Assembly: GCF_026210795.1 (NCBI RefSeq)
Contig: NC_089429.1
Span: 3,658,001-3,722,000 of the forward strand
DNA length: 64,000 bases
DNA from: Rhizophagus irregularis
Lineage: Eukaryota
Reading direction: 5' to 3'
A program made the translations under genes and the position numbers. Of the stretch, positions 7,011 through 36,929 are shown one piece after another. Positions within the stretch are counted from its first letter, which is position 1. Every line of letters begins with the position of its first letter. The notes beneath the pieces are model-generated. The model ran no database searches. It was not told the origin of the DNA and saw nothing but the letters and a program-made list of their open reading frames with translations.

Positions 7011-7702
7011 CAAGAAAAAGAGGCGGAAGAAAAGTGTGAGAAAAAAGGTGTGAGAAAAAAGGTGTGAGAAAAAGGGGAGAATGAAAGGGGAAGGGAAGGA
7101 CGATAGAGGAAGAAGTAAAGAAGGAAAAAGGAAGGGAAAGGAAAAAGTTTAAAAAAGATGATCCTTTTTTAAACTTTTGATACACGTAATGTGTGACGAC
7201 GTGATGTGTAATTAGTGCATTATTCGACCAACATCTAATCGTAGATCATGGTCAAATTTTTTAATTTTAAGTACTAGTCGAATATAGGCCGAATTTTACT
7301 AAGGCCGAATATTCCTTTTTCAACTAGTAGTAAGAGAAGGGAAATGTGAGGAAGAGAAAGGGTGGGAAAGAGGAAAATAAAAGGATAAAGAAGAGGAAGT
7401 TTCATTTATCATGTTGCTAAGATTATTTCACGTGACATGATAATAAATAGGAGCTGATATCATAAAAATTTATTTTTGAAAACATCATATTTGATAAACT
7501 TAATAAACATTGAATTTTCATTATTAAATGATGCACATCATGATAAAAATCTCATTGGTGATGTTTATTAATATTAAATATTACATATACATTTAAAATA
7601 ATAAAAATTACGATGTAAATGATTTGCAAAAATATACATTTGATGAATATTTTTCCCATGACTTCCTGATGATGTTCATAAACATTTTGAACGATCTTGC
7701 AC

Positions 7703-11287: not shown

Positions 11288-13769
11288 CATCCTGTTATAT
11301 ACTTTTTTTGTAACAACCTCGGATTTATCACATGACATTACACAAAATTCCAAAAAAAGAAATTATTTTTCCCATTAAATTTGGAGAAGTAGGTAGCACC
11401 AGTATTGTACAAATTTCCAAAAAAGGAAATTTTCAATCATGTCATTAATTCTGGCCAGAATTATACTTTTTTGCACCAAATCTTGTAATTATTAGAATTA
11501 GCATTAATTTTGACCAAAATTATGCTTCACAAATCGCATTATGATGTGTGTAACTATTGTAATTATTGTCATTGTTACACATATTATGCACTGTTATACA
11601 CGTTACGCTATAACGCCATTATGCCACCAAAACTTTTTCATTATTTTCACGATATAACACTTCGCTCGCTTCACTCAACTTTTTACTTCAAGTTTTTTTG
11701 TTTTACAAGTTTTTTTTGCCCTAAAATTAACAAGGATCATTACAAGATGGACGTATCTGAATTGAATGTTCAAAAATTTACGCTTATAATACCACATAAA
11801 AGTATGTAAGTTCTTTATTTATATGCTTTATGTGGATACAATATCGTTTCTTATTTCAAAACATACAAACTTAGAGGAAGAATTAGGACAAGTACACCAA
11901 AACGATACTAATAAGGGTATATAGTGTATAGTATTTCTAATAATCTATCTGATTTTGTTTTTGCAATATTCAAACTTTTGTTTTCTCATGATATAGATAT
12001 AGAACAGGTTGAACTGAGTGATACTACAGAACCTCAGAACCTAGAAAGTAAAGGTAAAATTATTAGTTTCTTCATTGTTTCTTGTGTAAATATTCTGCAA
12101 TTCATCCAAATAGTAACTAAATCATTTTACCTTTGAAGATTCAACTACAGATCTTTGTATTGGTTGTATCTTTAAGTCATAGGATGACATTGATAATGTC
12201 ATGAAAGCCTTCGGTAAAAAGAATGGATTTACAATTATAAAGAAACGATTAGGTCAACACAAGGATGGAAACATAAAGCATCGAAGTTTTGGATGTGAAT
12301 TCGGTGGCCATTATCAATCACATAAACAGGTTGATATTAATAGTCATCGAAACTGTAAAACAAAACGCCTACAATGCCCATGGAATGCAAATTTCAATCG
12401 CACCCAAAACTCTCAAATTATAAAACTTACCACTTTCAATAACTCTCACAACCATACGTTATTTCCTGCTGATACTGAAAAGTATTTACCAAAATACCGT
12501 TATATTCCTGATGATGTTCTTAAAGAAGTTCAATTTCTCACTGAATATGGAAATCTAGCGATCACTACTTAAAGAAAGTTATTAAAGGCAAAATTTCCAA
12601 CTCTCTCTATCCTTGATTGTGATCTCGCCAATGCAATACAAAAATATAAGGTTAAGCCAGATATAGTACATGATGCATCTCATTTACTGAAAACACTAAT
12701 CGAGTATAAGTCAAACAGTCCTGGGTGGTTCATTGAATTTCAACTAGATCAAGAAATAGGCTTTCTTGATTATTTTGGATGTCTCCAACACATATTGCTC
12801 TTTGGTTGGAGTATCACGATATCATTTTAAACGATAATACTGCAAAAACCAACCGATATAACATGCCACTTTCACTCTTTCTTGCCGTTGATAATAATAC
12901 TAGATCTCGTCTTGTTGCACAGGCACTTATATCTGATGAAACAACGGAATCTTATAAATGGATCTTAGAGTGCACAAAAAAAGCAACAATGATCAAACCG
13001 TTAGTATTTGTTACTAACACGGATCCTGCTATGGATGCGGCAATTGAACAAATATATGAAACAACTTACCCAATTCACTATATCTTTCATATAAGCGAAA
13101 ATCTGCCAAAAAACACGAAATTCAAACTTTCTAATTAGTACGATGATTTTGTTCGTGACTTTTATCATTATCGCAATAGTTTGTGTGAAAAGAAAAAAAC
13201 TTCTTATGAAAGATGGGCGAAATTATTGAAAAATATTCAAGTGTGAAAGATTATTTAATGAGAACCCTTTATCCCAGCCGGCGGGCATGGGCTCGAGCAT
13301 TCATGTCAAGAATATTTACTGCGGGATCTAAACCACTTCACGCGTGAAAGGTTATAATAACATTATTAAACATGAGTTAACATCAAATAGTACCTTGTAT
13401 AATCTCACAAGTGCCCTTGATGCTCGGCTCAAAAGTGAGGTAAAATGGAATCAATTCTTTGAATATCAAACCCTATCAACCTGTATGGGAATCGCATCAG
13501 TTGGCCATGATCTTTTTCCAAAAGTGGATAAATTATTGTCCGAATATTTGACTCCTCACATTTTATCTGCTGTACGTTCTGAAATAGCGCAATGTCTCTA
13601 TTTTATTGCAAGTAAAGTGGAGTCAAACATTATTGAGGTAATTTGAAGTCTATTTTTTTGTGTTAGAAATTAGTAACGAATCATTTTTTTTCATTTTTGC
13701 CATATAGGATCCAAGTGTTAGTATAACAGATGGATGTATTGAAGATAAATATGATGCCAAGCAAACCTT

Positions 13770-14064
13770 TCCTATAAAAAAAGAAAATTCGGAATCTGTC
13801 CTGAAAAGTATGGAAAATGTCCGGAAAATTTTCGTGCGTCCAGAAAACATTCAGAAACGGTCACGTTTTGGAACACTTTCCGGACGCACAAATTCCAGAC
13901 ATTTTCTTGACACTCCAGAATTTGTCCAGAATTTGTCCAGAATCGAGCGTCCAGAAAATGTTCCAAAACATGACCGTTTCCGAATGTTTTCCGGACGCAC
14001 GGAAAATTTCCGGACATTTTCCATACTTTTCAAGACAAATTCCGAATTTTCTTTTTTTATAGGG
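13770..14064. mobile_element. Near-fully palindromic MITE with CCCTA-type ends and 3-bp TSD (CACTA-like)
   Basis: TIR (C/T)CCTATAAAAAAAGAAAATTCGGAA extending almost to the centre; TSD CTT; removal restores DAKQTLLKSMIAEVG. Confidence 0.88.
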
Positions 14065-14236
14065 CTTATTAAAATCAATGATAGCTGAAGTTGGTGAAGA
14101 AAGAGTTTGTGAACTATGGAAGATTACGGACGTGCGACCTGATAACAAAAAACACATACATTTCGTAATAATAATTGATCCTGTCTCATATCTCTGTTTG
14201 TGTATGTCTAATATATCCCGTGGTATTGTTTGTCGT

Positions 14237-14630
14237 TAAAGCTCTACATGAGCCAGCTTGAGCCGAGCCAAGGGCTAGCTCGGCTTGGCTTAGCTTAGCT
14301 TGTTCCAAAAGTTCACAAGCTGGCTCATTTTCAAAATCATATAAAATTTATTATAACTAAAATTTCAAAACGTGATAACTTCGCCAATATTGCTCCAAAT
14401 TTAATGATTTTACTACCATTAGATTCGTCTCATCAAGAGGAATCGAATGGTAGTAAATTTATTAAATTTGGAGCAATATTGGCGAAGTTATCATGTTTTG
14501 AAACTTTAGTTTTAATTTTTAATAAATAGAGTCAGGGTAACATCAAGCCAAGCTATAACTGCAACTTAGTTTGGCTTGGCTTAGTGCAGCTTAAAAGCTC
14601 ACAAGCTGGCTCAGCTCATGTAGAGCACTA
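14237..14630. mobile_element. hAT-type MITE with a central ~145-bp palindrome
   Basis: TIR TAAAGCTCTACATGAGC/GCTCATGTAGAGCACTA; TSD TTTGTCGT/TTTGTCAT; interrupts the SWIM motif. Confidence 0.88.
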
Positions 14631-16089
14631 TTTGTCATCATTATTTTCGAGTAATGATGATTTTAGCAGTGGCTGGCTTTCAAATTCAGATGATACCTTC
14701 ACGATGGTATGTTGATGATCAAAAAAGTAAGGATGCTGGTGCAACAACTCTTTTTGTAAGCCAGGAGTCCATGTAAAATTTTTCGGGTATAATATTTGTT
14801 CCAAATCCTTTGGCTATTCCTACAACTGTTACCCATGTTTTATATCGTGCAACAAAAAAAAAGATGAAGTATGGAGAAGTGTAGGGCTTGCACGGCAGGC
14901 AACTCAACTTGCTGTTGAGCATGATAGTCATGGTGAGATAATTGGATGGTTAAAAAAGTTTATTGACAAGCACAAAGAAATAGAAATCGCGCAAAACCAA
15001 GACCTTATGGAAGTTCAAGTGAATAACAACAAAGAAAACGAACCTTTACAAGTTGAAAATCCGCTAGTTTCGCAACGTAAAGGGCGTCCAGAAACAAAGT
15101 GATATAAATCCTCAACTGAAACAAAGTCTCACGTGAAATATACCTGCAAAATGTGTGGTCAAACAGGACATAATAGCGCAAGGTGCCAGAATCGGTAATA
15201 TATCTATCTTTGTTTTGATTCTTTGTCTTGACTTATTTTTTGACAATTCACTTAATGATATGTTATGTTTGCAGAAGCCATTTACATTTATAGAGTGCAT
15301 ATAGTTAAGTTTCTTTAAATAAATGCGCGTTGATACTTGTACTGTGCATTTTATTTTTGTGCAATAATCAGTTCAAAGCCACCAAAATCACGTGATTTTA
15401 TAATAAATAAATATATAAATTCGATATTATAAAAAAAGCAATAAATTTAAAATTTTTAAATTTTATAAAATTTTTATCCGACCTAATTTTCTGAGGTTGT
15501 TACAAAAAAAGTGTATAACAGGATGTTACAAATAAATTTATCCATAATGTATACTAAAATTTTAATTATAGCTTAATTTTACTTCACATATTAATTTTTA
15601 TCTAAATTGGAGTATAATTAAGTAACTTTACTAATGAGATTTTGAGATTTAATATAAAATAAGTATTTCATCATATGGGCTGATTTGTCTACTCTGCATT
15701 AAAAAGAGTTATTAATTGATTTTCACAATTTTTATTACTCAAAATTGTTTTATAATACCAAAAAATCATCTGATTGATGATCACTTGACTAAATAATAAG
15801 TTAAACAAAAATTTACATTTGCAAAACTTAAATTATTAAATGTAAAAGAGTTGTGAAAAAACCCATTTCACTAATAAAAAACCTATTTCTCATATATATA
15901 GAATTTTTAACATATATTATTAAAAAGTAAGTATATTTTAATAAAATATAAAGTAAAATAAAAATTTATATAGCCTTAGTAGCTATAAATGTTTATAAAA
16001 GTATAATAAAAATATCATATAAAAGATGGTATCATAATAAATATTTTCAAACAATAAAAATAATTATTTTATGTCGGAGTTTGTATTAC

Positions 16090-17890: not shown

Positions 17891-18127
17891 ATATATATAA
17901 AGCTGAAATTAAACCTAAAAGCCAAATTTAAAGTCATAATAATTAAAATTAAGATGAAATTACATCAACTACTTTTTAGTTTTTTAGATTTTTTAGGCAT
18001 ACTTGCTTATGCAATAAGTAATCTCAATTGCATCGCCATGAGATCGCTTTAAAAAACCTGCCTCTTTGAATGATGATTTATTAATTACTTTATTTTGAAC
18101 AACTTTCATTGTTTTATGAATACATAA

Positions 18128-18304
18128 GGGAGCTTACAGATATTACGTAATTATCAAAGGAAGGAGGGGGTAACCAAAATCTTACGTTACACTTAATAAA
18201 ATATATAATTTATAAATATTATAATTTGATTGGTTATTAAATCTGACAAGGGGGGGGAGTAAATTTATATTAAACTGAATATTACGTAATATATGTAACT
18301 TCCC
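18128..18304. mobile_element. PIF/Harbinger-type MITE, copy 1
   Basis: TIR GGGAGCTTACA.ATATTACGTAAT; TSD TAA. Confidence 0.8.
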
Positions 18305-19791
18305 TAACTAATAAATCATATAAAGATTTATAAGAAATAATAACTAAATAACTAAATTTTCATGATAATAACAAATCATACCTTTAAATTAAAGACTGCA
18401 GCAAGTAGTAACAATACAGAAGAAAAAATCAGTCATCATCCAGAACTTCAAGTACTTCGCCCTGAATTAATTTACATACATATCCATAAGGATCATTATC
18501 TAGATATAATATCATTATGAAAAGCTCTACAATTGTAAAATTAATTAAGTCATAAAATCAAGTTGTTAAAAAACATCAATAATATTTATCAGAATAGATT
18601 ATTCCTATAATTTGTATTTTTTTTCTTTTATCAATATTCCAATTGACTCTTATTAATAATTTGACAATTATATTCTTAAGCATCTTTGGTAATTTTAATT
18701 TGGATTTAGTTAAAATTTTTATATCATATTCATCAGTAAATTTTCTTCTAGCCTCACCGGCTCTAAACTCATTATTGTCTTTATTGTCTACTGATTTTAA
18801 AATTCAGTCACTACAGTGATTAAGTTTTTTTCTATTACTTAATTTTTTTTCAATGTTCTTTTTATTTGATGTGGCTACACTAGTACTTTTTTCTCTTAAA
18901 GAATAATGAAATTTTAAATATTGTAGCTAAGCTAATATGTTGCAATAATAAAAAGTAAAATCATTACTGAACTATTAATATTCTATTAATATCACTAAAA
19001 TCTTGATCTATGATTAGAAATCATATATGACAGTTATACCATGATTTGAGATTTTTCTGTTTTAATAATTATTATAAAATAAAAAAAAAGTTTGACAAAA
19101 TTAATATTACAAATAAATTTCATATTATAAATAATTCATTAAATAGCTTTTATTATTTCATAAATATATGACTAATAAATTTCTTTTTAATTAACATAGT
19201 TATAAACTATATATTCTATATTATCTATATTATTATATATTAAAATTTCAAGTATTATTAATATGTATATTTTTGGGTAATTAATAAAATATAAATTCCA
19301 TTATTTTTGTTCAAGTAATGTATATATATACATATTTTATTTATATATATTTTTTCTTTCTTTTTTTATCAATAGAAATAAATAAATAAATAGTATCAAA
19401 TTTGCCAATAAACTGTCTCAAATAAAATCAGATTATTAAAAAATATCAATAATATTCATCAAAATAAACTATTTTTACAGTTTGTATTTTTTTCTTTTAT
19501 CAATATTCCAATTAATACTTCCCAATTATTTGATGATTATGTTTTTAAACATCTTTAATAATTTTAACTTAAATTCAGTTAAAATTTTTATGTTATATTC
19601 ATCAGTAAATTTACTTTTAATCTCAAATCTAGATGCATTTTTTTATTTTATATAATTTGTTTTCATTTTTCATGCTGTAGGATCTGAATTCAATTGCTTC
19701 ATCTATCATTAGATTTATTGCATTTCTTTTTAATTTAATTTTATAAAAATATTTATTATTATGGATTGTAGTAATATCATTGTTATACTTA

Positions 19792-20202
19792 AGGGAGTTA
19801 CACATATTACGTAATATTCAGTTTAATATAAACTTACTCCTCCCCTCCTTGTCAGATTTAATAACCAATCAAATTATAATATTTATAAATTATATAATTT
19901 TATTAAATGTAATGTAAGATTTTGATTACCCCATGATCCTACTTACTTATAAGATAGGTCACCCCCAGGCCTAAAGTAAAAATCATATATAAAATTCTTT
20001 GCAGATCCTATTATAAAAGGAAATTTTATGTTATATTGTTATAATTTTTTCCTTTTTAGCTAATTAACCAATAGAATTTAAGAAAAAAGTAAGGTAAAAA
20101 CTATTAGTAAAGGGCCAATTTTTTACAGTGACCTTTATTATAAATAAGCGGAGTCCTGTTACCCTCCCTCCTTTAATAATTACGTAATATGTGTAAGCTT
20201 CC
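19792..20202. mobile_element. PIF/Harbinger-type MITE, copy 2 (inverted), with a nested ~227-bp TIR insertion at 19932-20158
   Basis: Reverse-complement match to 18128-18304; TSD TTA; insert has CA(T/G)GA..CTTA.TTATAA ends with duplicated TTACCC. Confidence 0.75.
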
Positions 20203-22799
20203 TTATTCTATTTATATTAAACTTTTAGTTTTTTAGATTTTTTAGATATACTTGTGTAATGAGCAATCTCAATTGCATCATCATAAGATTGTTTTAAAAA
20301 ACCTGGTTTTTTGAATAATGATTTATTGATTTCTTTATTTTCAAATTGTGAATTGATCTATAAATTGTTATAATATATTCTTAATAATTATTATAAAATA
20401 AAAAAAAGTTTGACAAGATTAATATATTACAAATAAATTTCATATTATTAATAATTTATTGAATAGCTTTTATTATTTTATGAATACATGACTAATATGA
20501 CTAATAAATTTTCTTTTTAATTAACATAGTTGTGAACTATAAAATTTTGAATATATATTTTGTATTATTTATATTATTATAGATTAAAATTTCAAGTGTT
20601 ATTAATATATATATTTTTGAATAATTAATAAAGTATGAATTCCATTATTTCTATCCAAGTAGTATATATATATATACATATTTTATTTATATATATAATT
20701 TCTTTTTTTTTTATCATTAAAAATAAATAAAAAAATAAATAGCATCAAATTTGACAATAAACTGTTTTAAATAAAATCAGGTTGTTAAAGAATATTAATA
20801 ATATTCACAAAATAAATTATTTTTACAGTTTGTATTTTTTTTCTTTTATCAATATTCCAATTAATTCTTTCCAATTATTTGATAATTATGTTCTTAAACA
20901 TTTTTAGTAATTCAGTTAAAATTTTTATGTCATATTCATCAGTAAATTTACTTTTAATTTCAGATTTAGATGCATTTTTTATTTCATACAATTTGTCATC
21001 ATTTTCCATATTATAGAATGCTGTAGAATCTGAATTCAATTGCTTCATTTATCATTGGATTTATTGCATTTTTTTTTTAATTTAATTTCATAAAAATATT
21101 TATTATTATAAATTGTAGTAACGTCATTATTATACTTATTCTATTTATATTAAACTTTTAGTTTTTTAGATTTTTTTAGGTGTATTTGTACAATAAGCAA
21201 TTGCATTATTATAAAATCATTTTTAAAAAACTTGCCTCTTTAAATAATAATTTATTGATTTTTTTATTTTGAACAGCTTTTATTATTTCATGAATATATA
21301 ACTAATAAATCATATAAAGATTTATAAAAAATAATAACTTACAATTTGTCTTTATTTTCCATGTAGAATGCTATAAAATCTGAATTTAATTGCTGTATTT
21401 ATCATTGGATTTGTTGCATTTTTTTTTAATTTAATTTTATAAAAATATTAATTATTTAGATTGTAATAATGTCATTATTATGCTTATTCTATTTATATTA
21501 AACTTTTAGTTTTTTAAATATTTTAGATGTATTTATACAATGACCAATTTCAATTGTATTATCATAAAATCATTTTAAAAAACTTGTCTCTTTGAATAAT
21601 GATTTATTGATTTCTTTATTTTGAACAGCTTTCATTATTTCACAAATATATGACTAATAATAAATTATATAAAGATTTATAAGAAATAATAACTTACAAT
21701 TTATTTTTATTTTTCATGTAAAATGCTGTAGAATTTGAATTCAATTGTTACATCTATTATTGGATTTATTGCATTTTTTTTAATTTAATTCCATAAAAAT
21801 ATTTATTATTATGAATTGTAGTAATGTTATTATTTGTGCTTATTCTATTTATATTACTTATGCAATGAGCAATCTCAAATGCATTATTATAAAATCATTT
21901 TAAAAAACTTATTTTTTTAAATAATAATTTATTGATTTCTTTATTTTAAATAGCTTTCATTATTTTATAAATATATCATTAATAAATCATATAAAGATTT
22001 ATAAGAAATAATAATTTACAATTTGTCTTTATTTTCATATAAAATGCTAGAATTTGAATCCAATTGTCGCAGTCATCATTGGATTTGTTGCATTTTTTTT
22101 AATTTAATTCTATAAAAATATTTATTATTATAGATTGTAGTAATATTATTGTTTATTCTATTTATATATTTTTTTTTTAATTTTTAGTTTATTAATTATA
22201 ATACTTGGAATTATACAATATAAGTAAATTACATTACAAAATATACAGTAAATAGGTTAACTACTCCTGCAGTACAATGAGAATACATTAATAAACCTGG
22301 TGCAAATGCACCTATGAATTAAAAGAAAAAAGATGCAGGAAAAATAGAAACAAAAAAAAAAGTCCCACATACAAAAAAGAAAATAAAAAACAAATATGTA
22401 AAAATAAGGAAATAGTCAGTAATGAAGCCACCCTACTACCATTGGTAAATTTTTTAGGATAAAAATCTGCAAAGATCTCTGGCCTAAATTTCTGCACAGA
22501 TCTGCTACCCTATCAACACATGTCAGAGAAAATTTTTTAATAAAATCTATACAGATCTGCAAATGTTAAAAAATCTGCACAGAATTTTAAAAATAAATCT
22601 TCAGAATTTTTCAAAACAACTCAAATTCAGTTATCTGCTATTGAATGTTAACTAGTATCAATTTATTTAATTTATTTAATAAAAGTATTACAAATTATAT
22701 GTACAAATTAATTAAACTACACTAATTATTCTATACTACAAATTTATACGTTGTTAATAGTTTGGACATTGTTCCAGTTAGTTCGATTCTAACAAATAA

Positions 22800-25625
22800 T
22801 GGAGACCTACAAATGAAAAAAAAATTTCAAAGCAAGCAGCTTCAAAATATATAATCCAGCAGTCCAGAATCTAAACGCAAAAGAAACGATTATTAGTATA
22901 ACGATCATTAAAAAAAAAATATATAATCCAGCAGTCCAGAATCTAAACGTAAAAGAAACGATTATTAATATAACGATCATTAAAAAATAGAACTTTAAAG
23001 TATTTACCTTTGAAGTTTTTAAATACTTTAAAGTTCTTCATAATGGAAAACTGTAACCTAAAATAAAGAAAAAAATGAACATTAGTATAATATTCATTAA
23101 AGAAAGTAAAACAAAAAAAGAACTTCAAAGTGTTTACTTTCGAAGTTTTTTACTATTACAGTTTACCATCCTAAGGATTTTCAGCAAAATGTGAATCTAG
23201 AATCTAAAATAAAAGAAGAATGAACATTAGTTCACATTCGCTAAATAAAATTAATAAAAAAAATTTTATTCGAAGAAATACCTTCGAATTCTAAACATTT
23301 TGTTGAACAAAAAAAAATAAAAATATAATTTTAAAGATATTTACCTTAAAAATCCCTCCTTCTATTTCTTACATTCTAAGTCTGGTTCATTTAAAGAAGC
23401 TTGACAACCTATAAAATGAATAAAGAACATTAAAAATGTTCTTTTATAAGAAAAAAAAATTATAAAGTTTCACAATGAGACGTTGTGAAATTTACTTTTA
23501 TCCGTTTTAGGAATCTTTGAAGTACTGAAACTACAAAAAAAATAAAAATAAAAATAAAATGTTAGTTACATTTCATTTAAATAAAAACAGAAAAAAACAG
23601 AATTTTAAAGTTTACCTTCGAAATTCTGTTCAGAAGGAGTTTGGAGTGCTGTATTCTTATAAAGAAATAAAAATGAAATATTAGTCAACGTTTCGTTTAA
23701 ATAAAAAATAAGAAAAAATAAAAGAATTTTGAAATTTACCTTCAAAATTCTATTTAGAAAGTATTTATGAACTCGTTCATAGACATACAAAAAGAAGAGA
23801 AGCGAAACATTAGTAAACATTTCATTTTCATAAAAAAAGCAAAAAAAAAATTTTAAAAATTACTTCGAAATTTTGTTCAGAAATCTCAGAACCTAAAAGA
23901 AAAATAAAAAACAACCGGTTAGTAAAAATAAATTATAAATGAAAAACAAAACTGAAAAAAATACACTCACCCAAAGTCTTAGAGACTGAAATCTAAAGAA
24001 AAACACAAAAAGATAATGCAAATTCACCTATTTGGAGATTAACCAAAACTTAAAAGATGAAAAAAAAAACAAAGATTTCAAAACGAAAAACAAAAAAGAA
24101 AAAAACCTAATGGTAAATTTACTTATAGTCTTGGGGAATTACTGAAACTTAAAGAAGAAAGAAAGAAAAAGTTAGTAAAAAGAAATTTGAAACAAAAAAA
24201 ACAAAAACAAAAGAATAAATGCAAACTCATCTGAAGTCTTGAAATCTTTACGTCTTATAACCTAAAAAAAAAATAAAAAACATTAGTATGATTAACATTT
24301 TGTTAAATAAAATCAATAAAAAAATGATACATTTCGAAGTCTTACAAAGTTCAAACTTATTTTTTGGCTTCCTTTACCTAAAAAAAGAAGACGAAACATT
24401 AGTTAATGTTCGTTAAAAAAAAATTATTTTTTTTTAAAAAGTTTATTTACCTTTAACAGAAGTCCAGAACTTTCTTTCAGCTTCCTCTACCTAAAAAAAA
24501 GAAGTACGAATATTAGTGAACATTCGTTTAAATGAAAAAAAAATAAAAATTCGAAGATTTTACCTTCAAAATTCTGTTTTAAAGGCAAAAATCTACAAAA
24601 AATAAAACTGAAATATTAGCTAATGTTTCGTTTAAATAAAATAAAAAAAAGAATAGAATTTTGAAGTATTACCTTCAAAATTCTGTCTGGAAGCCAAAAA
24701 CCTAAAAAAAATAAAAGAATGTTAGAAACTTTCTTTTATAAAAATAAAAAAAAACATAAGTTTCGTGATGAAAGTTCATCATAAAACTTACCATATTGAA
24801 GTTTTGGACCTTAGAGTACTAGAACCTATAAAATAAAAATAAAAAAAATGTTAGAAACGTTCTTAATAAAATAAAAAAAAATTTAAAGTTTCACAACAAA
24901 ATGTTACAAAACTTACCCTTTACTTATTTTAGGAATCTTTAGAGTACTGAAACCTACAAAAAAAAAGAAACCTAAAACACTTATTAGTAATGTTTCATTT
25001 AAATAAAAAAAATCAGAATTTCAAAGTTTACCTTCGAAATTATATCCAGGAGTGTCTGGAATGCTGTATTTTACAAAATACAAAAAAAGAAACGTTAGAA
25101 AATATTTTGTTAAATAAAATTATTAAAAATTTTTTTTTTTGAAGGTTTTACCTTTGATATAGAAGTCCAGAATTCGTTTTTAGCTTCCTTTACCTAAAAA
25201 AAAATATGAATATTAGTTAACGTTCATCAATAATTTAATTAAAAAAAATTCGAAGGTTTACCTTTGAAATGATTGCAAAAAACAAACAAAATAAATAAAT
25301 GAAAACATTAGTAAATATTTCATTAAATAAAACAAAAAAAAAATAAACGAAAAATTATTAGTATTTTGAAGATAAATACCTTCGAAATCCTGTTTTAGAA
25401 GCGATCGGAAAGCCATAGAAACCTATAAATTAAAAAAACTAAAACATTAGCCAACGTTTTGTTTAGAAAACAAAAAAACTTGAATTTTAAAGTTTACCTT
25501 GAAATTCCACGCAGAAATCAACAGAAACTATAGACCTACAAAATAATGAAAACGAAATGTTAGTTAACGTTTTATTTAATAAAAATAAAAAAAATAAAAT
25601 TTTGAAGGGTTTACCTTTGAATTCC
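22800..25625 (-). repeat. Array of roughly 20-25 micro-exon/intron units (further units at 26625-27000)
   Basis: Minus-strand AAG|GTAAA/GTAAT donors (ttaccttcgaa on +), CTAAT/CTAAC branch motifs (cattag/gttag on +), poly(T)-TAG acceptors every ~100-130 bp. Confidence 0.75.
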
Positions 25626-26094
25626 AGTATCTGTTAATAATAATGTTTAACAACAACATAAAATAAATTCATTCAGTGTTGTCATGGGACAATGTTTGGG
25701 ATATGTTACACAAAAAAGAAATGATAACCCCTTGAAATTTTTCTATAATAACCTTGTTCAATACTTAGCAAAAATGTTTAGCATCCAATTATGCATAAAT
25801 ATATATAATTTTTGTAATTACAGAAGAGTACAGACAGAATGTGAACATGTTCAGAACAACCAAAAAAAGCTGCAGACATCAAAAATATACAACACTGAAT
25901 TCACTGATAAATAGTATACCTAATTTAAGGTGGCCTATTCTTCATTCTACCAGTATGATGAACACCAAGTATCATAACCATTAATTCAAATAATACAAAC
26001 TCAAGTCTATCGTTCAAGATGCTGTTGGTGATGTATCATGGTATATGCATTCCTTATGTTTAGATTTCTGTTAAAGTATTATATTTAATGTACA

Positions 26095-26448
26095 CTAGTG
26101 TTCACCTGTTGTCTACGACAACAGTTAATATGTAATTCCGGCCAGAATTAAAAGATCTGCAAAGAATTTCCTTTTTTGGAAATTTGAGCAACACAATTTT
26201 TTAATTTCTCTGAAAAGTAACAGAAGACAAAATTTCCTTTTTTGGAAATTTGCGTAACCGACAATTTCCTTTTATGGAATCCGGTGTAACCCAAAGTTTC
26301 AGTTTTTTGCCAGAAATAAAATTTCCTTTTTTGGACTTGTGTAACATTGGCGACGAATAGGAGTAGGGTTACACAATTCAAATGACTTATTTATATGGTT
26401 AATCTAAACATAACGCCCACGTGATTGCAGTGTTTTTAAATATATAGA
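26095..26448 (-). mobile_element. Non-autonomous Helitron
   Basis: Minus strand starts TC, ends CTAG, inserted between A and T without a TSD; subterminal hairpin CTGTTGTC-n3-GACAACAG; internal ~40-bp repeats. Confidence 0.82.
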
Positions 26449-27529
26449 TGTTTGATGATTATAGAACAATATTGGATTCTTCTTTCATTGATTCTAATAC
26501 TGTTGCTTCTAATATGATGAATCGACTCAATCATTTTCCAATAATAAGCAATTCTCCAATTTTATTATTTAATAGTTTTGTGTAAAAAACTTATGAGATA
26601 CAGCAAAGGTCAGGTACTATTGGTGTTTGACTACAAAAAAAATAAAAAATGAATGTTAATGAAACGTTCGTTAAAATAAAAAAATTTCATTTTGAAAGTT
26701 ATTACCTTTGAAATATTTGAAATAAGACAGTATCTAAAAAATAAAAGAATAACAAATGTTAAAACATTTATTAAAAGAAAGTAAAAAAAAAGAACTTTGA
26801 AGTATTACATTTGAAGTTCTTTCAAATGGGAGCCTGTGACTTAAAAAATAGGAGAAATGAACAATAGTGAAGTATTCGTTAAAAGAAGAAACTTAATTTC
26901 GAGGTATTACCTTTGAAGTTCTTTTAAATAGGAATCCAGAACTCCAAGGGAGCTGTCCTTTAAAATAAACAGAAGTAAAGAATGTTAGTAAACGTTCTTA
27001 ATGTTAGTTAATATTTTTCACACGAATCTTGCCATTTTTGCCCATAAGACTTCATAAGACTTTGAAAGTCAAAAAAAACTTTTTTTAACAAAAATCCTAA
27101 GAAAATTCAAAGTTAGGTGAATTTACTAATTTTATTCGTCGACTTCGAAGCTTGAAAAAAATAGTAATCTTTGAGTATTTTTTTAAAAAAAAACTGTGAT
27201 AGAAATAATTGTCTTTAAAAAGTGTTATAAATTATTTCTTTAAAGTCTTGTAAAAAATTGTTTCTTTAAAAAAGTTTAAATTTGGTTAAAATTAATTAAC
27301 TCGAGTCAATGCAAAGTTTATCAAATAAAAAAAGAAAAATGTGAAGATCTCCAAATATTTTTGTGCGAAGTGTTTTAAAAATATGTGATTTTGGAGATTA
27401 TCACAGATTTGTTTATAAAATATCTTTGAAAAAAATAAAAAGATGAATTCTGCAGTATTGCGCAGATTTTTACTAAAAATTGCAGATTATTGCAATTCTA
27501 CATCCTAAAAAGTTTACTGATGACAATTA

Positions 27530-30095
27530 CACTTCTAAAACTAAGATTATCTAACCATTCTTTTGAATTTATATTATGATACTCCTAGTTTTCTAAACAT
27601 TAACCTTATTTTTGCTAATATAATAAGCTGTCAATACCGTCTAAGGCCTTATCTATGTTCTTGATTTCCTTAGTCACTTTTTGCTTCTTACTCAACTGAG
27701 TGTTAGTATTAATTGTTCGATTCTTGAAGTTGCCTTTTTGATTCATCTTCTGAGGGCATCTACTTCTTTGTTTCAAGTTAGAGGTAAAGTACTTCATCTA
27801 ATCAGTAAATTCGTTCAAACTAAATGGCTTACCAATGATCTTTTTCAAATCAGCCCATGATTCGTAGTAAGTTATTAATTTACAGATACCCTGATCTTGA
27901 ATTAATTAAAATGCTTTACACCTAAAGGTATAACAATAGAATGAGCAGAATTATCCAGATATAAAGTAGCTGTAATTACTGAAGCAAGAACTCCTTTAAA
28001 CATAGCCTGAAATCATTCTCATTTTTTTCTTTGTTTGAGATAATCTCTTAATTAATTTGAATTTAATTGATACTGTAATAGTAACGTATTTAAAACTTGC
28101 TTTTATTTACCTTTGGGCGTAAAAAAAGTGGTTTTTGCTGAGAGGATACTAATTGGTTCCTTTTGTTGTACTGTAGCTTTTGATTGGTGTTTAGATGTTT
28201 TAAGCACTTTTAAAATTTCTATATCCATCAGTTAATTTTCTAAAGATTTGAATATGTCTGGCATTTGTTGTTAGTGCTCCTAACAGATCAGTTCAGACTG
28301 GATTCAGCTTAAATCTAATCTGATCTGATTTTTATTTTAATAGATCTGATCTGATCCGAATCTGATCAGATCTGGTTCAATTTGATCTGAATCTGGTTTG
28401 GATCCATTTGAATCTGATTTGAATCTGATCTGAATCTAGTTTGGATCTGGTCCTTGTCCTAAAAAAAGGAAGGAAACGTTAATTACGTTCCTCAAGTAAA
28501 AAGAAAAAAAAACAAAAAAAAGAAACGAACTTACCATAGTTCGTTCTTTTTTTTGAATCCTAGTCGTTCAGCTTCATCTCACGTCCAGGTTTCCTAAAAA
28601 AAAAAAGAAAGGGAACGTTAATTACGTTCCCTTAAGTAAAAATAAAAAAATAAAAAAAAGAAACGAACTTACTATAGTTCGTTCTTTTTTTTAAATCCTG
28701 GTCGTTCAGCTTCGTCTCATGTCCAGATTTCCTAAAAAAAAGAAAGGGAACGTTAATTAGTATGTTCCCCTTAAGTAAAAATAAAAAAAAATAAAAAAAA
28801 AAATGAACTTACCATAGTTCGTTCTTTTTTTTGAATTTTGGTCGTTCAGCTTCGTCTTACGTTCAGGTTTCCTAAAAAAAAGAAAGAGAACATTAATTAG
28901 TACGTTCCCTTAAGTAAAAATAAAAAAAAATAAAAAAAAGAAACGAACTTACCATAGTTCGTTCTTTTTTTTAAATCCTGGTTGTTTAGCTTCGCCTCAC
29001 GTTCAGGTTTCCTAAAAAAAAGAAAGGGAATGTTAATTACATTCCCTTAAGTAAAAATAAAAAAAAAAACAAAAAAAGAAATGAACTTACCATAGTTCGT
29101 TTTTTTTTTTAAATCCTGGTCATTCAGCTTCATCTCACATCCAGGTTTCCTAAAAAAAAAGAAAGGAAATGTTAATTACGTTCCCTTAAGTAAAAAAAAT
29201 AAAATAAAATAAAAGAAATGAACTTACCATAGTTCGTTCTCTTAAATCCTGGTTGTTCCTTTGTCTCACGTTCAGGTTTCCTAAAAAAAAAAGAAAGGGA
29301 ACGTTAATTACATTCCCTTAAGTAAAAAAAATAAAATAAAATAAAAGAAATGAACTTACCATAGTTTGTTCTTTTTTTTAAATCCTGGTCGTGTCGTTAG
29401 GTTTCGTTCATCTAGGCTTTCTACTAAAAAAGAAGGGAACTGTTAATTATGTTCTCTCAAGAAAAAAACAAAAAAAAAAAATGAACTTACCTAGTTTGTT
29501 CTTTTAAATCTTGGTCGTCTAGCTTCGTCTGTTCGTCCAGAAAAAGTTTTTTAAAAAAAAATTTTTTTTTTTTATTTAAAAAAAAATTTGATCCAAATCT
29601 GTTCAGATCAGATCAGATTTTCTTGTGTTATGATCTGATCTGATCTACAGATTAAAATTTTGAAAACCGAACCAGATCTGACTCAGATCAACAGATCAGA
29701 TCAGATTTTTTTTGGGGTACTATTTATTGTAGTAACGTCATCTGTTGTTTCATGAACTCTTTGCAAACACTTTCCATTCCTTTAATTACACTAACTTAAA
29801 TAAAGTCAAAAGACTTGTAAAAAAGAAAGAGTAAGTGATATAAAGACTGTAAGTCACCGATACTAAAAGTTGCAAGAGCCTCATGATATTTCATAAGTAA
29901 TTTCATATACAGTTCTTCATCTTCAGTAAGTTTTTCAACGGTTTGAAAAATATTTTCATTTGTTAAACTGAAAGAAAAATATTTCTTAGAATATGGCTAA
30001 CCGATTCAAAGTAGAAAGTTCTGTCCACAGCTGTATCAAAGTCATTACCCTCAAAAAGGGTTTTAGAAATGTTTTAATTCGATAAAGAAGCCATA
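27530..30095 (-). pseudogene. Decayed ORF resembling ORF1 of fungal non-LTR retrotransposons, split by the hAT element at 28272-29722
   Basis: Fragments such as FKGVLASVITATLYLDNSAHS..GVK and KLITYYESWADLKKI; multiple stops; family assignment from recall only. Confidence 0.35.
28272..29722 (-). mobile_element. Second, inverted copy of the hAT element at 3948-5261, with 8 exon/intron-like units
   Basis: Reverse-complement identity to 3948-5261; TIR TAGTGCTC/GGGTACTA; TSD TTTGTTGT/TTTATTGT. Confidence 0.9.
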
Positions 30096-30377
30096 GTTTC
30101 AGAAAATTTTCCTTTAAAATTTCTATAGAAAAAAATAGTTTATGCGATCGGTAGAAAAAGTCTTCTTCTTATTTTATTTATATTAAACTTTTAGTTTTTT
30201 GGATTTTTAAATGTATTTGTACAATGAGTAATTTCAATTGCATCATCATAAGATTATTTTAAAAAACCTGTTTTTTTAAATAATGATTTATTAATTTTTT
30301 TATTTATTTTCAAATTGTAATTTGATCTATAAATTATTATAACATGTTCTTCTTTGATTTCTCAATAATTATTTTAA

Positions 30378-30717
30378 GGATAAATCTAATTGTAACAGCC
30401 TGTTACGCATCTTATTTGTAACAACTTCCAATTTTATCCAATTAAAATTTAAGATCAGGCGTAATGTAAACAAAAACAAAAGATCAGTTGTGTAACTAAG
30501 ACAAAAGAATTTTTTAAAAAATTTCAAGAAACTGCTTATAACTTAAAATTTTGTCTATGAAACTGTTTTAAATACATTAAGTAAAAGTTTTCCAAATTAA
30601 ATTTTGCATATAAAAATTTTATTTGTGAAATACATATTAAATTTATTATTAAAAAAAAAATAAAAAAAGGATGTTACAAATAAGATATGTAACAGGCTGT
30701 TATAAATACATTTTTTC
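30378..30717. mobile_element. Mutator-type MITE related to the MULE at 10508-15543
   Basis: TIR GGATAAAT..TTGTAACAGCCTGTTAC; 9-bp TSD TTATTTTAA. Confidence 0.85.
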
Positions 30718-30877
30718 TTATTTTAAAATAAAAAAAAGTTTGGCAAGATCAGTATATTACAAATAAATTTTATATTATAAATAATCTATTGGTAACTTTT
30801 ATTATTTTATGAACACATGACTAATAAATTTCTTTTTTAATTAACATAGTTGTAAACTATAAAATTTTTAATATATA

Positions 30878-31375
30878 CAGTCAGAACTCGATATAACGAA
30901 CCCTCCGGTTAGGCAATTTTGGATCGTTATATCAGATATTCGATAAATCAAATATTCTTAATATACCGATTATATAGTAAAAAATATAAAAATTCGGTAT
31001 ACCGAATTTTTATTAATAAAAAAAATGATTTTAATTGTATTACATGCTGTGCTAATTTGTTTATTATTAATATCATATTCTTACAGAAATTATTAAATTC
31101 CAAAATTAAGGCATAAATGTCAGGTGATCTGCTGCGCTGCATAGTGCCAGCCGGGAATAAGTTAATTCTGACCGGAGTTAGGTGGTAATCGGCTTATCGC
31201 GAATAAATACATATGACTGGTTTATGATCAGACTTCGTTATATATAATATCGTGAAATTTATAATAAAATCGGTATATAGTGATAAAATTTAATATAGAC
31301 AGTTTTGGTTTGAGAAAAAAGTTCGTTATAGGCTAAAATCGGTTTATCACGAATCGTTATATCGAGTTCTGACTG
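30878..31375. mobile_element. Tc1/pogo (Tigger-like) MITE
   Basis: TIR CAGTCAGAACTCGATATAACGA; TA TSD. Confidence 0.9.
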
Positions 31376-31615
31376 TATTCTGTATTATCTATATTATTAT
31401 ATATTAAAATTTCAAGTATTATTAATATATATATTTTGAGTAATTAATAAAGTATGAATTTCATTACTTTTGTCTAAATAGTATATATATATATATATTT
31501 TTTATTTATATATATATTTTCTTTTTTTTTGTCAATAGAAATAAATAGAAAAATAAATAACATCAAATTTTCCAATAGACTATTTCAAATAAAATTAGGT
31601 TGTTAAAGAATATTA

Positions 31616-31987
31616 CTTTACAGAAACTTAACATCTTTAATCAATATAGAATTGATATCGTTAAGTTTATCTTAACGGTATTATTTTGACATTATTTTGA
31701 TATTGATTCAATATTAATTTAATATTAATGTAATATCAAAATAAAGTATTATCATTTTGATATTATATTAATATTGAATCAATATTAAATTAATATCGAA
31801 ATGATATCTGAAATAACATTGAAATGACATTTTTAAGTTAAACTTAAATATATTGTTTCGATGTTATTTCAATTATCATTTTAATATCATTTTGATACTA
31901 TTTCAATATCATTTTGATATTAAAATAATAATATTTTATTTTTAATATTAAAATAATATTGTTTGAAAATTTGAAGTTTCTGTAAAG
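31616..31987. mobile_element. Degenerate TIR MITE
   Basis: CTTTACAGAAACTT/AAGTTTCTGTAAAG ends; interrupts a repeat module; TSD not clean. Confidence 0.55.
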
Positions 31988-33975
31988 ACAATAATATTCA
32001 TCAAAATAAACTATTTTTACAGTTTGTATTTTTTTTCTTTTATCAATATTCCAATTAATTCTTTTCAATTATTTGATAATCATGTTCTTAAACATCTTTA
32101 ATAATATTTTAACTTAAATTCAGTTAAATTTTGTATCATATTTATCAGTAAATTTACTTTTAATTTTAGATCTAAATGCATTTTTTATTTATACAATTTG
32201 TCTATATTTTTTATGTAGAATGCTGTAAAATCTGAATTTAATTATTTCATTTATCATTAGATTTGTTGCATTTTTTTTTTAATTTAATTCTATTAAAATA
32301 TTTATTATTATGAATCGTAGTAATACCATTATTTGTACTTATTCTATTTATATTAAACAAATAGTAGTAGTTGTTAAATAATTTTATTTTAATTATCTGT
32401 AACTTATTTTTAGAATGAAAAAATCAAATTTTTACAGCAGTTGGTAAAACTAATCCTTATAATATATTAACAGGAATTGACCAGAAAGAGATTATTTCAC
32501 TGCTTCTCTGATGTATATATTATGATCTGTTACTTTGTCAATTATAACAGAAAAATCATGGTTATGAAATTACTGCAAAATATAAAAAAAATATTTATTT
32601 TAATTATATTAAAGAATCAATTATATTCTCAGAAAAAGTATACATAGATGATAGTCATGATATTATATTATTGGCAAAAGATCAAATTTAACTTAAAACA
32701 ATACTAAAAATTGCAAACAAATTTTATAATTTGAATGATATTAAAATTAACAAAGATAAATCTGAATTATTATTGAAAAAATTAAATAAATCATATAATT
32801 ATTCAAATAATTATTTAAATCTGAATATATTAATATTAAATCTAAATGTTCTAGTGAATCTATTAGAATATTGGGGTTTGGTTTAACTTCAATGATATTA
32901 AAAAATTCAGTTTTCAACAAGCTAAATCAAAATTAAAAAATTGGTTAAATAAAAGGATTACAGACAAATAATTACAGTATGTGTTTAATACTTTTGTCAT
33001 CTCTACAATTGAATACCGTGTTTAAATAACAATTTTTAGTGAACAAAAATGTAATAGGATTACGTTATCATTCAGATATGCATTTAAAAAAAAATTAAAA
33101 TTATCTTAATATACACGCACTAATAGCTATAATTAATCATAATTTGATATATAATATAAAGAATGTAGCAAATAATCAATTACAGGCAAAAGGCACAAAT
33201 TTCTTAATACAGTTATTAAATGATAAAGGATTATTAGGAAAATTACAATGCTTAAAATTAAATAATTGCAACAGAGATTTTGAATAGAAGATAATATAGT
33301 ATCAGATTTTTTGTTTAAGAATGATTATTATTTTATAAAAGAAATTATTCTAATTGGATTTTAGAAAATATTAAGATATTAAAAAATATTAACATAAAAA
33401 TTTTGATAAATAGTACGATAAATATAGAACATTATAAAATAACTGGTGATAATGTACCAGTAAGAAAAATAATAGGAGCTGAAAAATTTTTTAAGAATAT
33501 TTATAGATTCAAAAAAGATGGAATTATGTCTTTAGATCAATTAATTGGAATATCTAATTAATTGGTATACTTTAAACTTTAAGGAAGATAATCATAATTA
33601 TTGTAAACTAAAAAATTGGTATAAAGAAATACAAAAAATTGTTACTGTTGATAGCAAAATCTTTAAACCAGAATATAGAATGTTGACAGTTCCTTATTTT
33701 AAAGGATATAATATGACTTATTGTGAAATAAATAACAATAATATTTCTAAAATATTAACATTTATTGGAATTTAAAATAATAAGAGAAATGATGTTGAAA
33801 TAGGGGTTTTAGTTAAAAAATCTGGCATTGATGATCAATAAAATTTGTTATTAGGTCATTTAAATGTAATTTATAATGTTAATATTAAAGCATCAAATAT
33901 TCATTTAAGAAAATATTCTGGATGTGATTTAGATAATTTTGAAAAATCATATGGTAAAGATGGATACTGACATAC

Positions 33976-35035
33976 TGTTACGCAGTAAAATGTTGCGCAG
34001 CAATCATGTGATATAACTGGACCTGTGATGCTGATCAATGTAGCAAATGTTGAATATGTTTGATATGTTCGATATGTTGCATATGTCCGATATATAGAAT
34101 ATATAGAATATGTAGTATATATGGAATATATAGAACATATAGCATATATAGGATATATAGCATATGTAACATATGTTAAACATTTTTAGTTTGGAAATTT
34201 ATGTATACACAGTGAAATTCGATAAACCGGATCTATCGGTTCCACTAAAAATATCCGGTTTATCGGGATATCTGGTTTAGCGAAAAAATTTTGATATATT
34301 GAAAATCTATTATATTGAATTTTTAAAAAATTTTCATGCTAATAAAACTAATATACACTATAATTTGATTTTTTCATCTAGTTTTAAGTCATAGAGGTCA
34401 TGAAAATGAATATAAAATATTTTAAAAGTAATACATAACTTCAGCCGGAATTAAGATTTTTATAATTCTGGCCAAATTTAGGATTTACCGCATCACGTCA
34501 CTTAAATTTTATTGGTTCCCAGTCACGTTATCCGGTTTATCGAATCATTTTTACTATAGCTGGTTAGAAAATTGATCCGTTATAGCGAATATCGAGCTTT
34601 TACTAGTAAACTCCGGTATATCGAACCTATTTTAATATACGTGATTTGGTTCCAGCAAAAAAGTCTAGTTTAGGCGCAAATCCGGTTTATCGAAGATCCG
34701 GTTTATCGAATTTCACTGTGTATATAGACCTGTAATTAGACCTGTAATTAAAGAATTCAATATAAGAATGTATGTGAAGAATTTAATTAATAAAATGTTT
34801 ACCCTTTAATATACACCTTAATTTTAAGTTTGGTTTTATATGGTTAATCTGCCTTCCCTTATTTATGTTTGATTGTATGCGCCAGTATGAAGCGATACTC
34901 TATTCACATCTGATTGGATTGATTTTAACATATACGTTGATCCTTAAAATTACCTTCTGCTTTATTAAATATAAACATTTTTTAATGTATAGCTTATTTT
35001 TAAGCTTATAAGAACTGACCTCTAAGGCTCTAACA
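33976..35035. mobile_element. Probable solo LTR inserted in the LINE relic
   Basis: TGTTA...TAACA ends; 4-bp TSD ATAC; internal 9-bp tandem repeats at ~34050-34180. Confidence 0.65.
34208..34720. mobile_element. Tc1/pogo-type MITE nested in the solo LTR
   Basis: TIR CACAGTGAAATTCGATAAACCGGATCT; TA TSD. Confidence 0.9.
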
Positions 35036-36929
35036 ATACAATTGTAATATTTTAGTTAACACCGATGATTGTTTAATTATTGGAAGTCAATCTCATAATT
35101 CATATAATTAATTGACATTTAACAATAGTAATTTAAAAGTGTACACAAATAAATTTATTGGATGTTAAAGATTTTAGTTACAATGACTTTTTGTTAGAAA
35201 TAACTGGAAAAAGTACAAAACAATAATTAGTCAACTTATAATATCAATTGATCAATCATATAAAATAAATAATAATCTAATTATAAAATTGTTGGATTTT
35301 TCATCCAATCAAAATCAACTAATAAAAATTCATTTACTTGAAAATTCAATTAAAAAATTCAAGATTTATACTGATGGTTCAGTTTATGATTTTAGAAAAC
35401 AACAATGTATAATGTCTTTTAGATTTATTATATATTGTTAAAGATAATGTGATTTTACATAGTTTTCGTTCAGAAATTTCTTACTTTTCATCATCAAATA
35501 AAGTAGAGTTGTTAGCAGTCATTTCAGCGTTAATTGTTTTACCATCTAATAGTGAGATCACTATTTATACTGACTTGAATAATGTTTAATATTACAGGAT
35601 ATTACGATATTATAGATAGAAATAATTTTAATATTTTGCCAAGAAAATTCTTTAAAATTAGAACATCTAATATTTATTAGAATATTCTTTGAGAAATTAT
35701 TGTTACAAATACTTTTACTTTAGATTTTGTTAAAGTTAAGGGACATAGTAATGATTACTTTAATAATTATGTTAATGAGTTTATTACTTATACTGATAAA
35801 ACTTCAAATTTAATTTTTAAAAATAATAATTTAAATAATTTAGTTTATATTTCATGATGGAATAATAATACTGTAGAGTGTAATTTACATCAATTTTTAA
35901 TATTACAAAATTGGGAAAAGTTTTTAAATCTAAATCAAAATGGCTATTATTGATGATGAGCTTATTGATAAAATGACTTTTTGGGATCATGATTATAGTA
36001 AATCAAAGTTCACTTTCATTGATTTAATTAAAGGTATAGTTCCTTGTGAATTGTTGGCATATACTTCATTGATATTTGAAAATTGAAATATACAAGAAAA
36101 ATTTTTAGTTTTACTACAAAATTTATTTTTGAAAAAAGTTGGGGCTTTTGCATTGATAGATGTTCAAAACAAAAAGAAAAAGAGAAAAGATTAAAAATTA
36201 GTAATCTTAAAAAAGTTAAAGAAAATTATAACAAAAATGAATATATAAATCCTAATAGGAAAATTAATGTTTTTAACCTTTATAGTGATTTAAAAAGTTT
36301 ATGGTTGAATATTTATCTTGGAATGAATGTACAGGGTTTATAGTTTTAGAACTACACTTTCTATTCTATTTTTATTTTTAGGGAGGATAGCAGTTGAACA
36401 GTGTTCAGTGGTTCTAAGGAGATGAAATAAAAAATTAATTTTATCCTAAGAGTCAGGTTTTTAGAACGAGGTTGATAAAACGTCTTAAGTGTATATTACT
36501 ATAGTAGGTCTCAAATCCAGGTTATAACTAATATAGAAACTAGTTGGTTAGTATTCGATAGTTTAGAATCAGGTACCTGCAGCTATTACTATAAAATTTT
36601 GTATATTTGTATTGTGCTTTACAAATTTAATCGCTAATAAAAAATAAAAAATAAAAATGATATATATAAAATCTGGAGATAATACGCATCTCGTGTTTTT
36701 TACATACCCAACTTTCTTTTTAAAGTCAAAAAGTAAAGAATACATTACACATTTATTTTCACAAGCAAAATTGTAAAAAATTTACATTTTGGTTCATTTT
36801 ATAACTAATGACATTACAACGCTAGGAATGATCAGTATTTATGATTTAACATTACAGCACATGCTGTAACCGTAAAAATAATTCTGATGGCACAATATTA
36901 CAAATCATTTTATCACAATCAGTTCAAGT

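What the first reader, a model, noticed from the sequence alone, without database searches (positions are those of the whole stretch)
22440..27522. 5-kb CAT...ATG / 2-bp-TSD element filled with 20+ diverged micro-exon/intron units and no ORF
Seen: minus-strand donor, branch and acceptor triplets every ~100-130 bp from ~27000 to 22800, all in one orientation. Exons are about 25-60 nt and divergent, while the splice motifs persist. No transposase or long spliced ORF is evident by eye. Inference: retention of splice signals despite divergence suggests selection on splicing itself. This is a second transposon type with the same cargo architecture as the hAT element.
Basis: partly seen in the sequence, partly recalled or inferred. 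Interest (0 to 1): 0.75.

Follow-up and report, generated by a model that had tools for sequence, protein, structure and literature searches.

The report
Transposon packed with tiny spliced introns
A 5-kb gene-less jumping element in a root-symbiont fungus holds about 29 back-to-back short introns between tiny non-coding exons; a related copy appears to be spliced, so the element likely makes a splicing-rich non-coding RNA, possibly to keep itself from being silenced (untested).

Summary
The feature is real. Window 22440-27522 has terminal inverted repeats and an AC duplication on both sides. Its ends match published PlavakaB termini (CATCA..TGATG, 2-3-bp TSD). It has no transposase. The host is Rhizophagus irregularis. 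A strict scan finds 19 intron units on the minus strand, 0 on plus; shuffles give about 3, at most 10. The exons keep no reading phase and give no long ORF. One contig from a presumed-RNA run, from a related copy, joins an exon end directly to the next exon start, so the family appears spliced. Contigs identical to this copy are unspliced. New here: many donors and branch points sit in short CpG-bearing hairpins, as in the neighbouring hAT elements. Selection on splicing is plausible for the lineage but not shown, and this copy looks dead. Best reading: a tandem-grown, spliced non-coding unit carried by a non-autonomous Plavaka-like transposon; its purpose (anti-silencing, siRNA trigger, UTR relic or none) is open. 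Not described in nine literature searches.

The parts
22438..22439 (.). Left target-site duplication (AC)
22440..22478 (+). Left terminal inverted repeat, begins CATTGG
22466..22583 (.). Left subterminal cluster of a short TCTGYR motif in both orientations (7 of the element's 16 copies lie in the first 200 nt)
22660..22870 (-). Inferred last exon / 3' end of the array transcript; related-copy contigs from three runs match 22742-22864 at about 88%
   Evidence: the exact 3' end is inferred
22871..25614 (-). Main array: 25 curated introns and 24 micro-exons; block duplications inside (e.g. 23406-23706 vs 24823-25119, 76%; exact 72-nt tandem at 22844-22987)
24451..24490 (-). Exon whose start is joined to an exon-end-like sequence, not to the intron, in a presumed-RNA contig of a related copy
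   Evidence: tables 5 and 7 (X19, 24492), compared by eye
25152..25193 (-). Exon whose end matches the loose letters of that contig at 22 of 30 positions without gaps
   Evidence: by eye
25670..26565 (.). Insert interrupting the array: decayed pieces (about 88-94% identity) of two abundant transcripts of unknown identity (25670-25897; 25899-26007 + 26467-26565)
   Evidence: tables 5, 8; no family hit
26008..26466 (.). 459-nt stretch absent from the matching contig in 4 of 4 runs; part of it is a high-depth repeat; likely a nested insertion
   Evidence: tables 2, 5
26631..27032 (-). 5' block of the array: 4 curated introns (71-75 nt) and 3 micro-exons
27407..27486 (.). Right subterminal cluster of the TCTGYR motif (4 copies in the last 200 nt)
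27484..27522 (-). Right terminal inverted repeat; reads CATCAGTAAA inward, identical to the first 10 nt of PlavakaB-1_PaIn
27523..27524 (.). Right target-site duplication (AC)

Best explanation
This is a transposase-less DNA transposon with PlavakaB-type ends whose interior is an array of about 29 short spliceosomal-type introns and non-coding micro-exons, likely grown by tandem duplication and likely spliced into a roughly 1-kb non-coding RNA in live copies, where the act of splicing would help keep the element transcribed and out of host silencing. Shown: ends, TSD, one-strand intron array, internal duplications, no coding phase, hairpins over many donors and branch points, and one exon-exon junction in a contig of a related copy. 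Inferred: movement in trans by a Plavaka transposase; transcription from the right end toward the left end; selection on splice signals in the mobile lineage; this copy dead and decaying by C>T/G>A change. Speculative: the anti-silencing purpose. Confidence is about 0.8 in the structure and splicing part and about 0.35 in the purpose.
For: Termini and 2-bp TSD fit PlavakaB. Contigs with other flanks or without the element stop at its edges: X17 record 1 matches from 22441 inward with other DNA beyond, X18 record 9 flank ends at 22439, X20 record 29 starts at 27523. Strand-specific excess of intron units, 19 vs 0, shuffles max 10. Intron lengths match 10 host-gene introns of 61-91 nt; branch A lies 20-28 nt from the AG in 20 of 26. 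X19 contig (depth 17) matches 24472-24492, then continues with letters matching the end of exon 25193-25152 at 22 of 30, not the intron; X18 (another study, depth 70) shows the same 22864-24472 joint with the same 21-nt side, though its loose letters were not listed. If X19's 93 loose letters run to the contig end, about 480 nt lie where my exons sum to 525 and the DNA spans 1607 (tentative). Exon phases 7/10/10; longest open stretch 55 aa, permutation P=0.69. The architecture recurs in two hAT copies and a third array.
Against: The runs are only guessed to be RNA and are contigs, so strand and level are unknown; an intron-less genomic copy could give the same junction. Only one junction was read, by eye, out of 28. 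No joint with CT..AC ends at a predicted intron was among the 15 of 55 joints listed or the 9. Contigs identical to this copy (X18 23743-24077 and 24689-24914; X19 24526-24691) keep their introns, as do several related-copy contigs in X20. One frame of the joined exons has few stops (10; P=0.024 among exon-order permutations). Nothing here tests function or silencing. Hairpins that hide splice signals would be expected to slow splicing, which sits better with the stalled-spliceosome rival. No autonomous partner could be examined.
Confidence: 0.45

Rival explanations
1. Neutral by-product: an ordinary transposon UTR intron plus flanking exon was amplified in tandem, as any minisatellite is. Copies are spliced because they inherited signals, and nothing selects for it.
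For: Block and tandem duplications are visible. The window is full of tandem and inverted repeats. This copy is decaying: CpG intact at only about 10 of 38 hairpin-arm sites (by eye). Unit choice is ascertained on signals.
Against: Exon bodies are randomised among most units while intron length, branch spacing and hairpin arms persist. The same design occurs in unrelated elements.
Confidence: 0.25
2. The array is the multi-exon 5' or 3' UTR (or divergent partner RNA) of a Plavaka transposase gene that this derivative has lost; it tunes transposase expression in autonomous copies.
For: The third array (about 7050-5350, minus) follows a pyrimidine-rich first exon and runs into ORF-like sequence, as a leader would. 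Non-autonomous elements are often deletion derivatives (general knowledge).
Against: In the expressed related copy the array transcript reaches about 300 nt from the left end (22742), leaving no room for a downstream ORF. No transposase remnant in 6 frames. The ORF-like piece after the third array had no homologue.
Confidence: 0.15
3. The hairpin-hidden splice signals make spliceosomes stall, feeding the transcript to RNAi, so the element acts as a small-RNA source that restrains its family (as described for Cryptococcus transposon introns).
For: Donor windows fold more stably than those of 10 host introns (p=0.012; branch windows p=0.08). Donor-stem pairs co-vary, 1 of 500 shuffles reach the value (related sequences, so not a probability). 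Many unspliced contigs. Precedent in PMC6232588; R. irregularis makes TE-derived small RNAs (PMC8647823).
Against: Only 11 of 29 donor windows reach z<=-1.5 and one block (24261-23893) has no hairpins. The one junction read is spliced. No small-RNA data were examined.
Confidence: 0.1
4. A decayed micro-exon protein gene captured by the element.
For: One joined frame has only 10 stops (P=0.024). The read junction is open in one frame, and exon 25193-25152 is 42 nt without a stop.
Against: Paralogous exons differ by non-multiples of 3 (42/40/47; 37/34/35); phases 7/10/10; open exon-frames 36 of 75 vs 30.8 shuffled, p=0.08. hAT exons are 53-65 nt, none of 6 a multiple of 3.
Confidence: 0.05

Closest known systems
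PlavakaB DNA transposons (CMCT clade; PMC12730594, passages and supplement hits)
   Same: CATCA..TGATG termini, 2-3-bp TSD, TIRs. The right end equals PlavakaB-1_PaIn over 10 nt. Plavaka is reported as prevalent in R. irregularis (PMC11075540, passages).
   Different: No transposase. The left end reads CATTG. The interior is an intron array, which the passages read do not mention.
Non-autonomous CACTA/EnSpm derivatives and Pack-type elements (recalled)
   Same: Ends and subterminal repeats kept, ORF lost, captured fragments of expressed sequence inside.
   Different: The bulk of the cargo is a self-duplicated non-coding exon/intron array, not gene fragments.
Spliced TE-derived lncRNAs of Blumeria hordei (PMC10648671, passages)
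   Same: Spliced non-coding RNA from inside fungal transposons.
   Different: Those are mostly antisense to retrotransposon genes and under 1.9% of that study's lncRNAs have more than five exons; here there are about 30 exons built from repeated units.
Stalled-spliceosome RNAi of Cryptococcus (PMC6232588, passages)
   Same: Transposon introns with unusual features could alter splicing kinetics.
   Different: There the introns are few and lie in coding transposon RNAs; no stalling or siRNA is shown here.
Schistosoma micro-exon genes and Introner elements (both recalled)
   Same: Runs of very short exons; families of similar introns.
   Different: Exons here are not symmetric or coding. The introns are tandem inside one element, not dispersed insertions into genes.

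Membership tests
PlavakaB (CMCT) | Termini CATCA..TGATG | tested here: met
   Right end exact, left end CATTG (2 differences)
PlavakaB (CMCT) | 2- or 3-bp TSD | tested here: met
   AC/AC; weak alone, but edges are supported by contigs breaking at 22439/22441 and 27523
PlavakaB (CMCT) | Plavaka transposase | tested here: not met
   No Pfam family in 6 of 6 frames, stops read as X; so filed only as a non-autonomous element with PlavakaB-type ends
PlavakaB (CMCT) | Autonomous partner with the same TIR in the genome | not testable with these tools
   No genome held; the metagenome motif scan gave 16 loci, none related
MITE | Under 1 kb (criterion in PMC11075540) | tested here: not met
   5083 nt
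Spliced lncRNA unit | Exon-exon junctions in RNA | tested here: inconclusive
   One junction in a presumed-RNA contig of a related copy; contigs identical to this copy are unspliced
Spliced lncRNA unit | No coding frame | tested here: met
   one frame mildly stop-poor (P=0.024)
Micro-exon protein gene (recalled definition) | Exon lengths multiples of 3 and an open joined frame | tested here: not met
   7 of 27 exons are multiples of 3
snoRNA host gene | Known snoRNA in introns | tested here: not met
   0 Rfam matches at E<=0.1; only curated families covered
Mirtron cluster (recalled definition) | Hairpin spanning the whole intron, with small-RNA products | not tested
   Only 38-50-nt windows were folded; the hairpins seen are local
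Introner elements (recalled definition) | Near-identical introns dispersed in genes | tested here: inconclusive
   A profile of these introns hit 1 host-gene intron in the window, at E=6.9; genome-wide not testable

The most novel reading that the evidence does not exclude
Unrelated DNA transposons of AM fungi (Plavaka, hAT and others) carry a selected 'splicing cassette': an intron-dense non-coding unit with hairpin-gated splice signals whose function is spliceosome engagement itself, setting whether the element is treated as self or silenced.
Probability: 0.25. Interest if true: 0.82.

Novelty: new variant of a known kind. Interest (0 to 1): 0.57.

Why it matters
Much of the R. irregularis repeat fraction is unclassified, and one published curation keeps TIR elements only if they have a transposase domain or are under 1 kb (PMC11075540, passages), so a 5-kb domain-less element like this would drop out. 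If the array is selected, it is a natural test of whether splicing alone protects mobile DNA from, or exposes it to, silencing in a fungus with CpG methylation and many Argonautes. The test can use existing long-read cDNA, methylome and small-RNA data. If neutral, it still shows a route to 30-exon non-coding RNAs by tandem intron duplication.

Tried and rejected
No whole genome was held, so copy number, empty site and partner were not tested directly. The metagenome scan with the end motif gave 16 of 16 loci that diverge right after the motif; a BLAST of them against the window gave one short unrelated hit. No run was on record as RNA; I laid 4 guessed-RNA runs of 24 listed, then 3 of them on 22600-25660, and no DNA run. 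Tables were cut (40 of 55 joints and 502 loose ends hidden; 135 loose ends). Insert identity: Pfam none; representative search gave 2 short unnamed or hypothetical ORFs, probably off-frame; another frame gave none; the ESM Atlas could not be used for it. The piece after the third array had no homologue. Rfam none. Four look-ups of earlier findings returned nothing. A regex for a shared branch hairpin did not match the hAT or third arrays (0 hits), so a common origin of the arrays rests only on weak profile hits. The joined exons were not searched against protein databases. Viral contigs and genome contigs were not scanned.
Full report
Host and setting. The window is AT-rich and transposon-dense. 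A single-exon ORF at 43825-44805 falls in a 90% cluster whose 4 named members are Rhizophagus irregularis proteins. An MLKL_N-plus-kinase gene and a FAR1/MULE element are also present.

The element. 22440-27522 is bounded by a 39-nt inverted repeat, 74% complementary, with 18 of the first 21 bases matching, and by AC on both sides. A short TCTGYR motif clusters near the ends: 11 of 16 copies lie in the outer 200 nt. A 2-bp duplication is weak alone, but contigs support the edges. One X17 contig matches inward from 22441 at about 86% with other DNA beyond; flank paralogues end at 22439 (X18) or start at 27523 (X20) (table 8). PMC12730594 (passages) gives PlavakaB termini as CATCA..TGATG with 2- or 3-bp TSDs. 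Its supplement (search hits) lists PlavakaB-1_PaIn beginning with the same 10 nt as the right end. PMC11075540 (passages) reports Plavaka as prevalent in R. irregularis. No Pfam family was found in any of six frames. I therefore call it a non-autonomous element with PlavakaB-type ends; membership by transposase is not met.

The array. A strict scan found 19 intron units on minus, 0 on plus, against shuffle means near 3 and a maximum of 10. Hand curation gave 29 introns between 27032 and 22871; 24 are GT..AG, 4 have one changed base, 1 lacks a donor (a partial tandem copy). 25 are 65-91 nt, like 10 host-gene introns of 61-91 nt. The branch A lies 20-28 nt from the AG in 20 of 26. The 27 short exons are 9-66 nt, 33% GC against 18% in introns. 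Exon bodies average 0.46 identity against 0.44 for shuffles, but some pairs reach 72-85%, and block duplications are visible. The array thus grew by repeated duplication over a long time. A 1016-nt gap interrupts it. Two pieces there match abundant contigs at about 88-94%, mostly by transitions, and a 459-nt part is skipped in 4 of 4 runs. I could not identify these pieces.

Coding potential. Exon lengths mod 3 are 7/10/10; paralogues differ by non-multiples of 3; open exon-frames are 36 of 75 against 30.8 shuffled (p=0.08). The longest open stretch of the joined 3' block is 55 aa (permutation P=0.69). One frame has only 10 stops (P=0.024), a mild result against the non-coding reading.

Splicing. 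No holder was on record as RNA. I laid four guessed-RNA runs from three studies, then three of them on 22600-25660. In X19 a 725-nt contig (depth 17) matches 22742-22864 with 15 differences in 122, so it is a related copy, and also 24472-24492, which ends two bases past the start of exon 24490-24451. Its next letters do not match the intron that follows in the DNA. By eye they match 25154-25183, the end of the paralogous exon 25193-25152, at 22 of 30 positions without gaps, 7 of the 8 differences being transitions (table 7). That is an exon end joined to an exon start at the predicted donor and acceptor. I infer that the loose-end row belongs to this contig from its position. X18, another study, shows the same joint and 21-nt side at depth 70, but its loose letters were not listed. 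If the 93 loose letters run to the contig end, about 480 nt lie between the two anchors, where my exons sum to 525 and the DNA spans 1607; this is tentative. Against: the runs may hold DNA, an intron-less genomic copy could give the same join, no listed joint has CT..AC ends at a predicted intron, and contigs identical to this copy, and several related ones in X20, keep their introns.

Hairpins. Donor windows fold better than those of 10 host introns (p=0.012); branch windows p=0.08 with only 5 controls; 11 of 29 and 13 of 26 reach z<=-1.5. In 19 donors chosen for this type, 78% of stem cells pair and 18 cells show two-sided change, reached by 1 of 500 shuffles; the sequences are related and the +1 slide reaches 16, so this is weak. 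Intron CpG is 35 against 18 expected despite decay. The hAT array has stronger hairpins, 6 of 7 donors and 7 of 7 branch points. A profile of this element's introns hits the 3' half of 14 hAT introns in register and on the right strand, weakly (E 0.002-0.8), and one host intron at E=6.9. Shared origin and convergence on T-rich signals are both open.

Mechanism. The most likely reading is a spliced non-coding transcription unit, grown by tandem duplication and carried in trans by a Plavaka transposase. Persistence of signals, spacing and hairpin arms while exon bodies randomise suggests constraint in the mobile lineage, but ascertainment is not excluded, and this copy's decay looks neutral. For purpose I commit to splicing as a self-mark that keeps copies transcribed and unsilenced; protection of spliced transcripts from silencing is recalled from other systems, with only a C. 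elegans remark seen in PMC6232588 (passages). Rivals are neutral amplification, a UTR relic, a stalled-spliceosome siRNA source (same paper) and a decayed micro-exon gene.

Literature. Nine full-text searches (listings only unless named) showed no description of such arrays. Passages were read in PMC13465315 (introns in Glomhopper coding regions), PMC11952901, PMC8647823 (0 hits for 'intron' or 'splic') and PMC10648671 (spliced TE lncRNAs, rarely over five exons). The library lacks most subscription papers; repeat libraries and other supplements were not seen and may hold this family. Introners, schistosome micro-exon genes, mirtrons and Pack-CACTA are recalled, not looked up.

Verdict. Real; a new variant of a known kind; interest 0.57. 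The structure is solid, splicing rests on one junction, and function is untested.

Noticed in passing
window 3948-5261 (+) and 28272-29722 (-): Two copies of a non-autonomous hAT-like element (TAGTGCTC ends; 8-bp TSD at the first copy), each with about 7-8 near-identical intron units of 67-82 nt and 53-65-nt exons, with strong hairpins over donor and branch point.
   Followed up: partly
window 5330-7170 (-): A third micro-exon array of several unit types after a pyrimidine-rich stretch, running into ORF-like sequence that the first hAT copy interrupts; looks like a multi-exon 5' leader. No homologue found for the downstream piece.
   Followed up: partly
window 800-1100 (-): About three more intron-like units upstream of a 73-82-nt tandem repeat at 191-660.
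   Followed up: no
window 11280-15530: Decayed MULE element (FAR1 and MULE domains) with two nested palindromic insertions at about 13771-14063 and 14240-14630.
   Followed up: no
window 37434-39961 (-): MLKL_N-like region present twice in tandem (92% identical), upstream of a protein kinase domain.
   Followed up: no
window 26140-26400 and 11340-11470: A short AATTTCC-T-run repeat in the nested insert resembles, by eye, the subterminal region of the MULE element; depth about 3000 in run X17.
   Followed up: no
window 20987-22167: 355-nt tandem repeat, 3.5 copies, 82% matches, part of a larger AT-rich repeat also at 18000-19800 and 30100-32400.
   Followed up: no
window 32400-36360 (+): Heavily decayed retroelement-like region with a weak RNase H hit, E=0.005.
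   Followed up: no
window 49358-59898: Many long self-inverted repeats (for example 51093-51765, 53120-54296, 57407-57847), suggesting this genome readily makes palindromes.
   Followed up: no
window 43825-44808 and 46764-47129 (+): A 327-aa single-exon hydrophobic ORF of unknown function (weak PLDc_N hit) and a short Gln-rich ORF on a 45-nt repeat.
   Followed up: no
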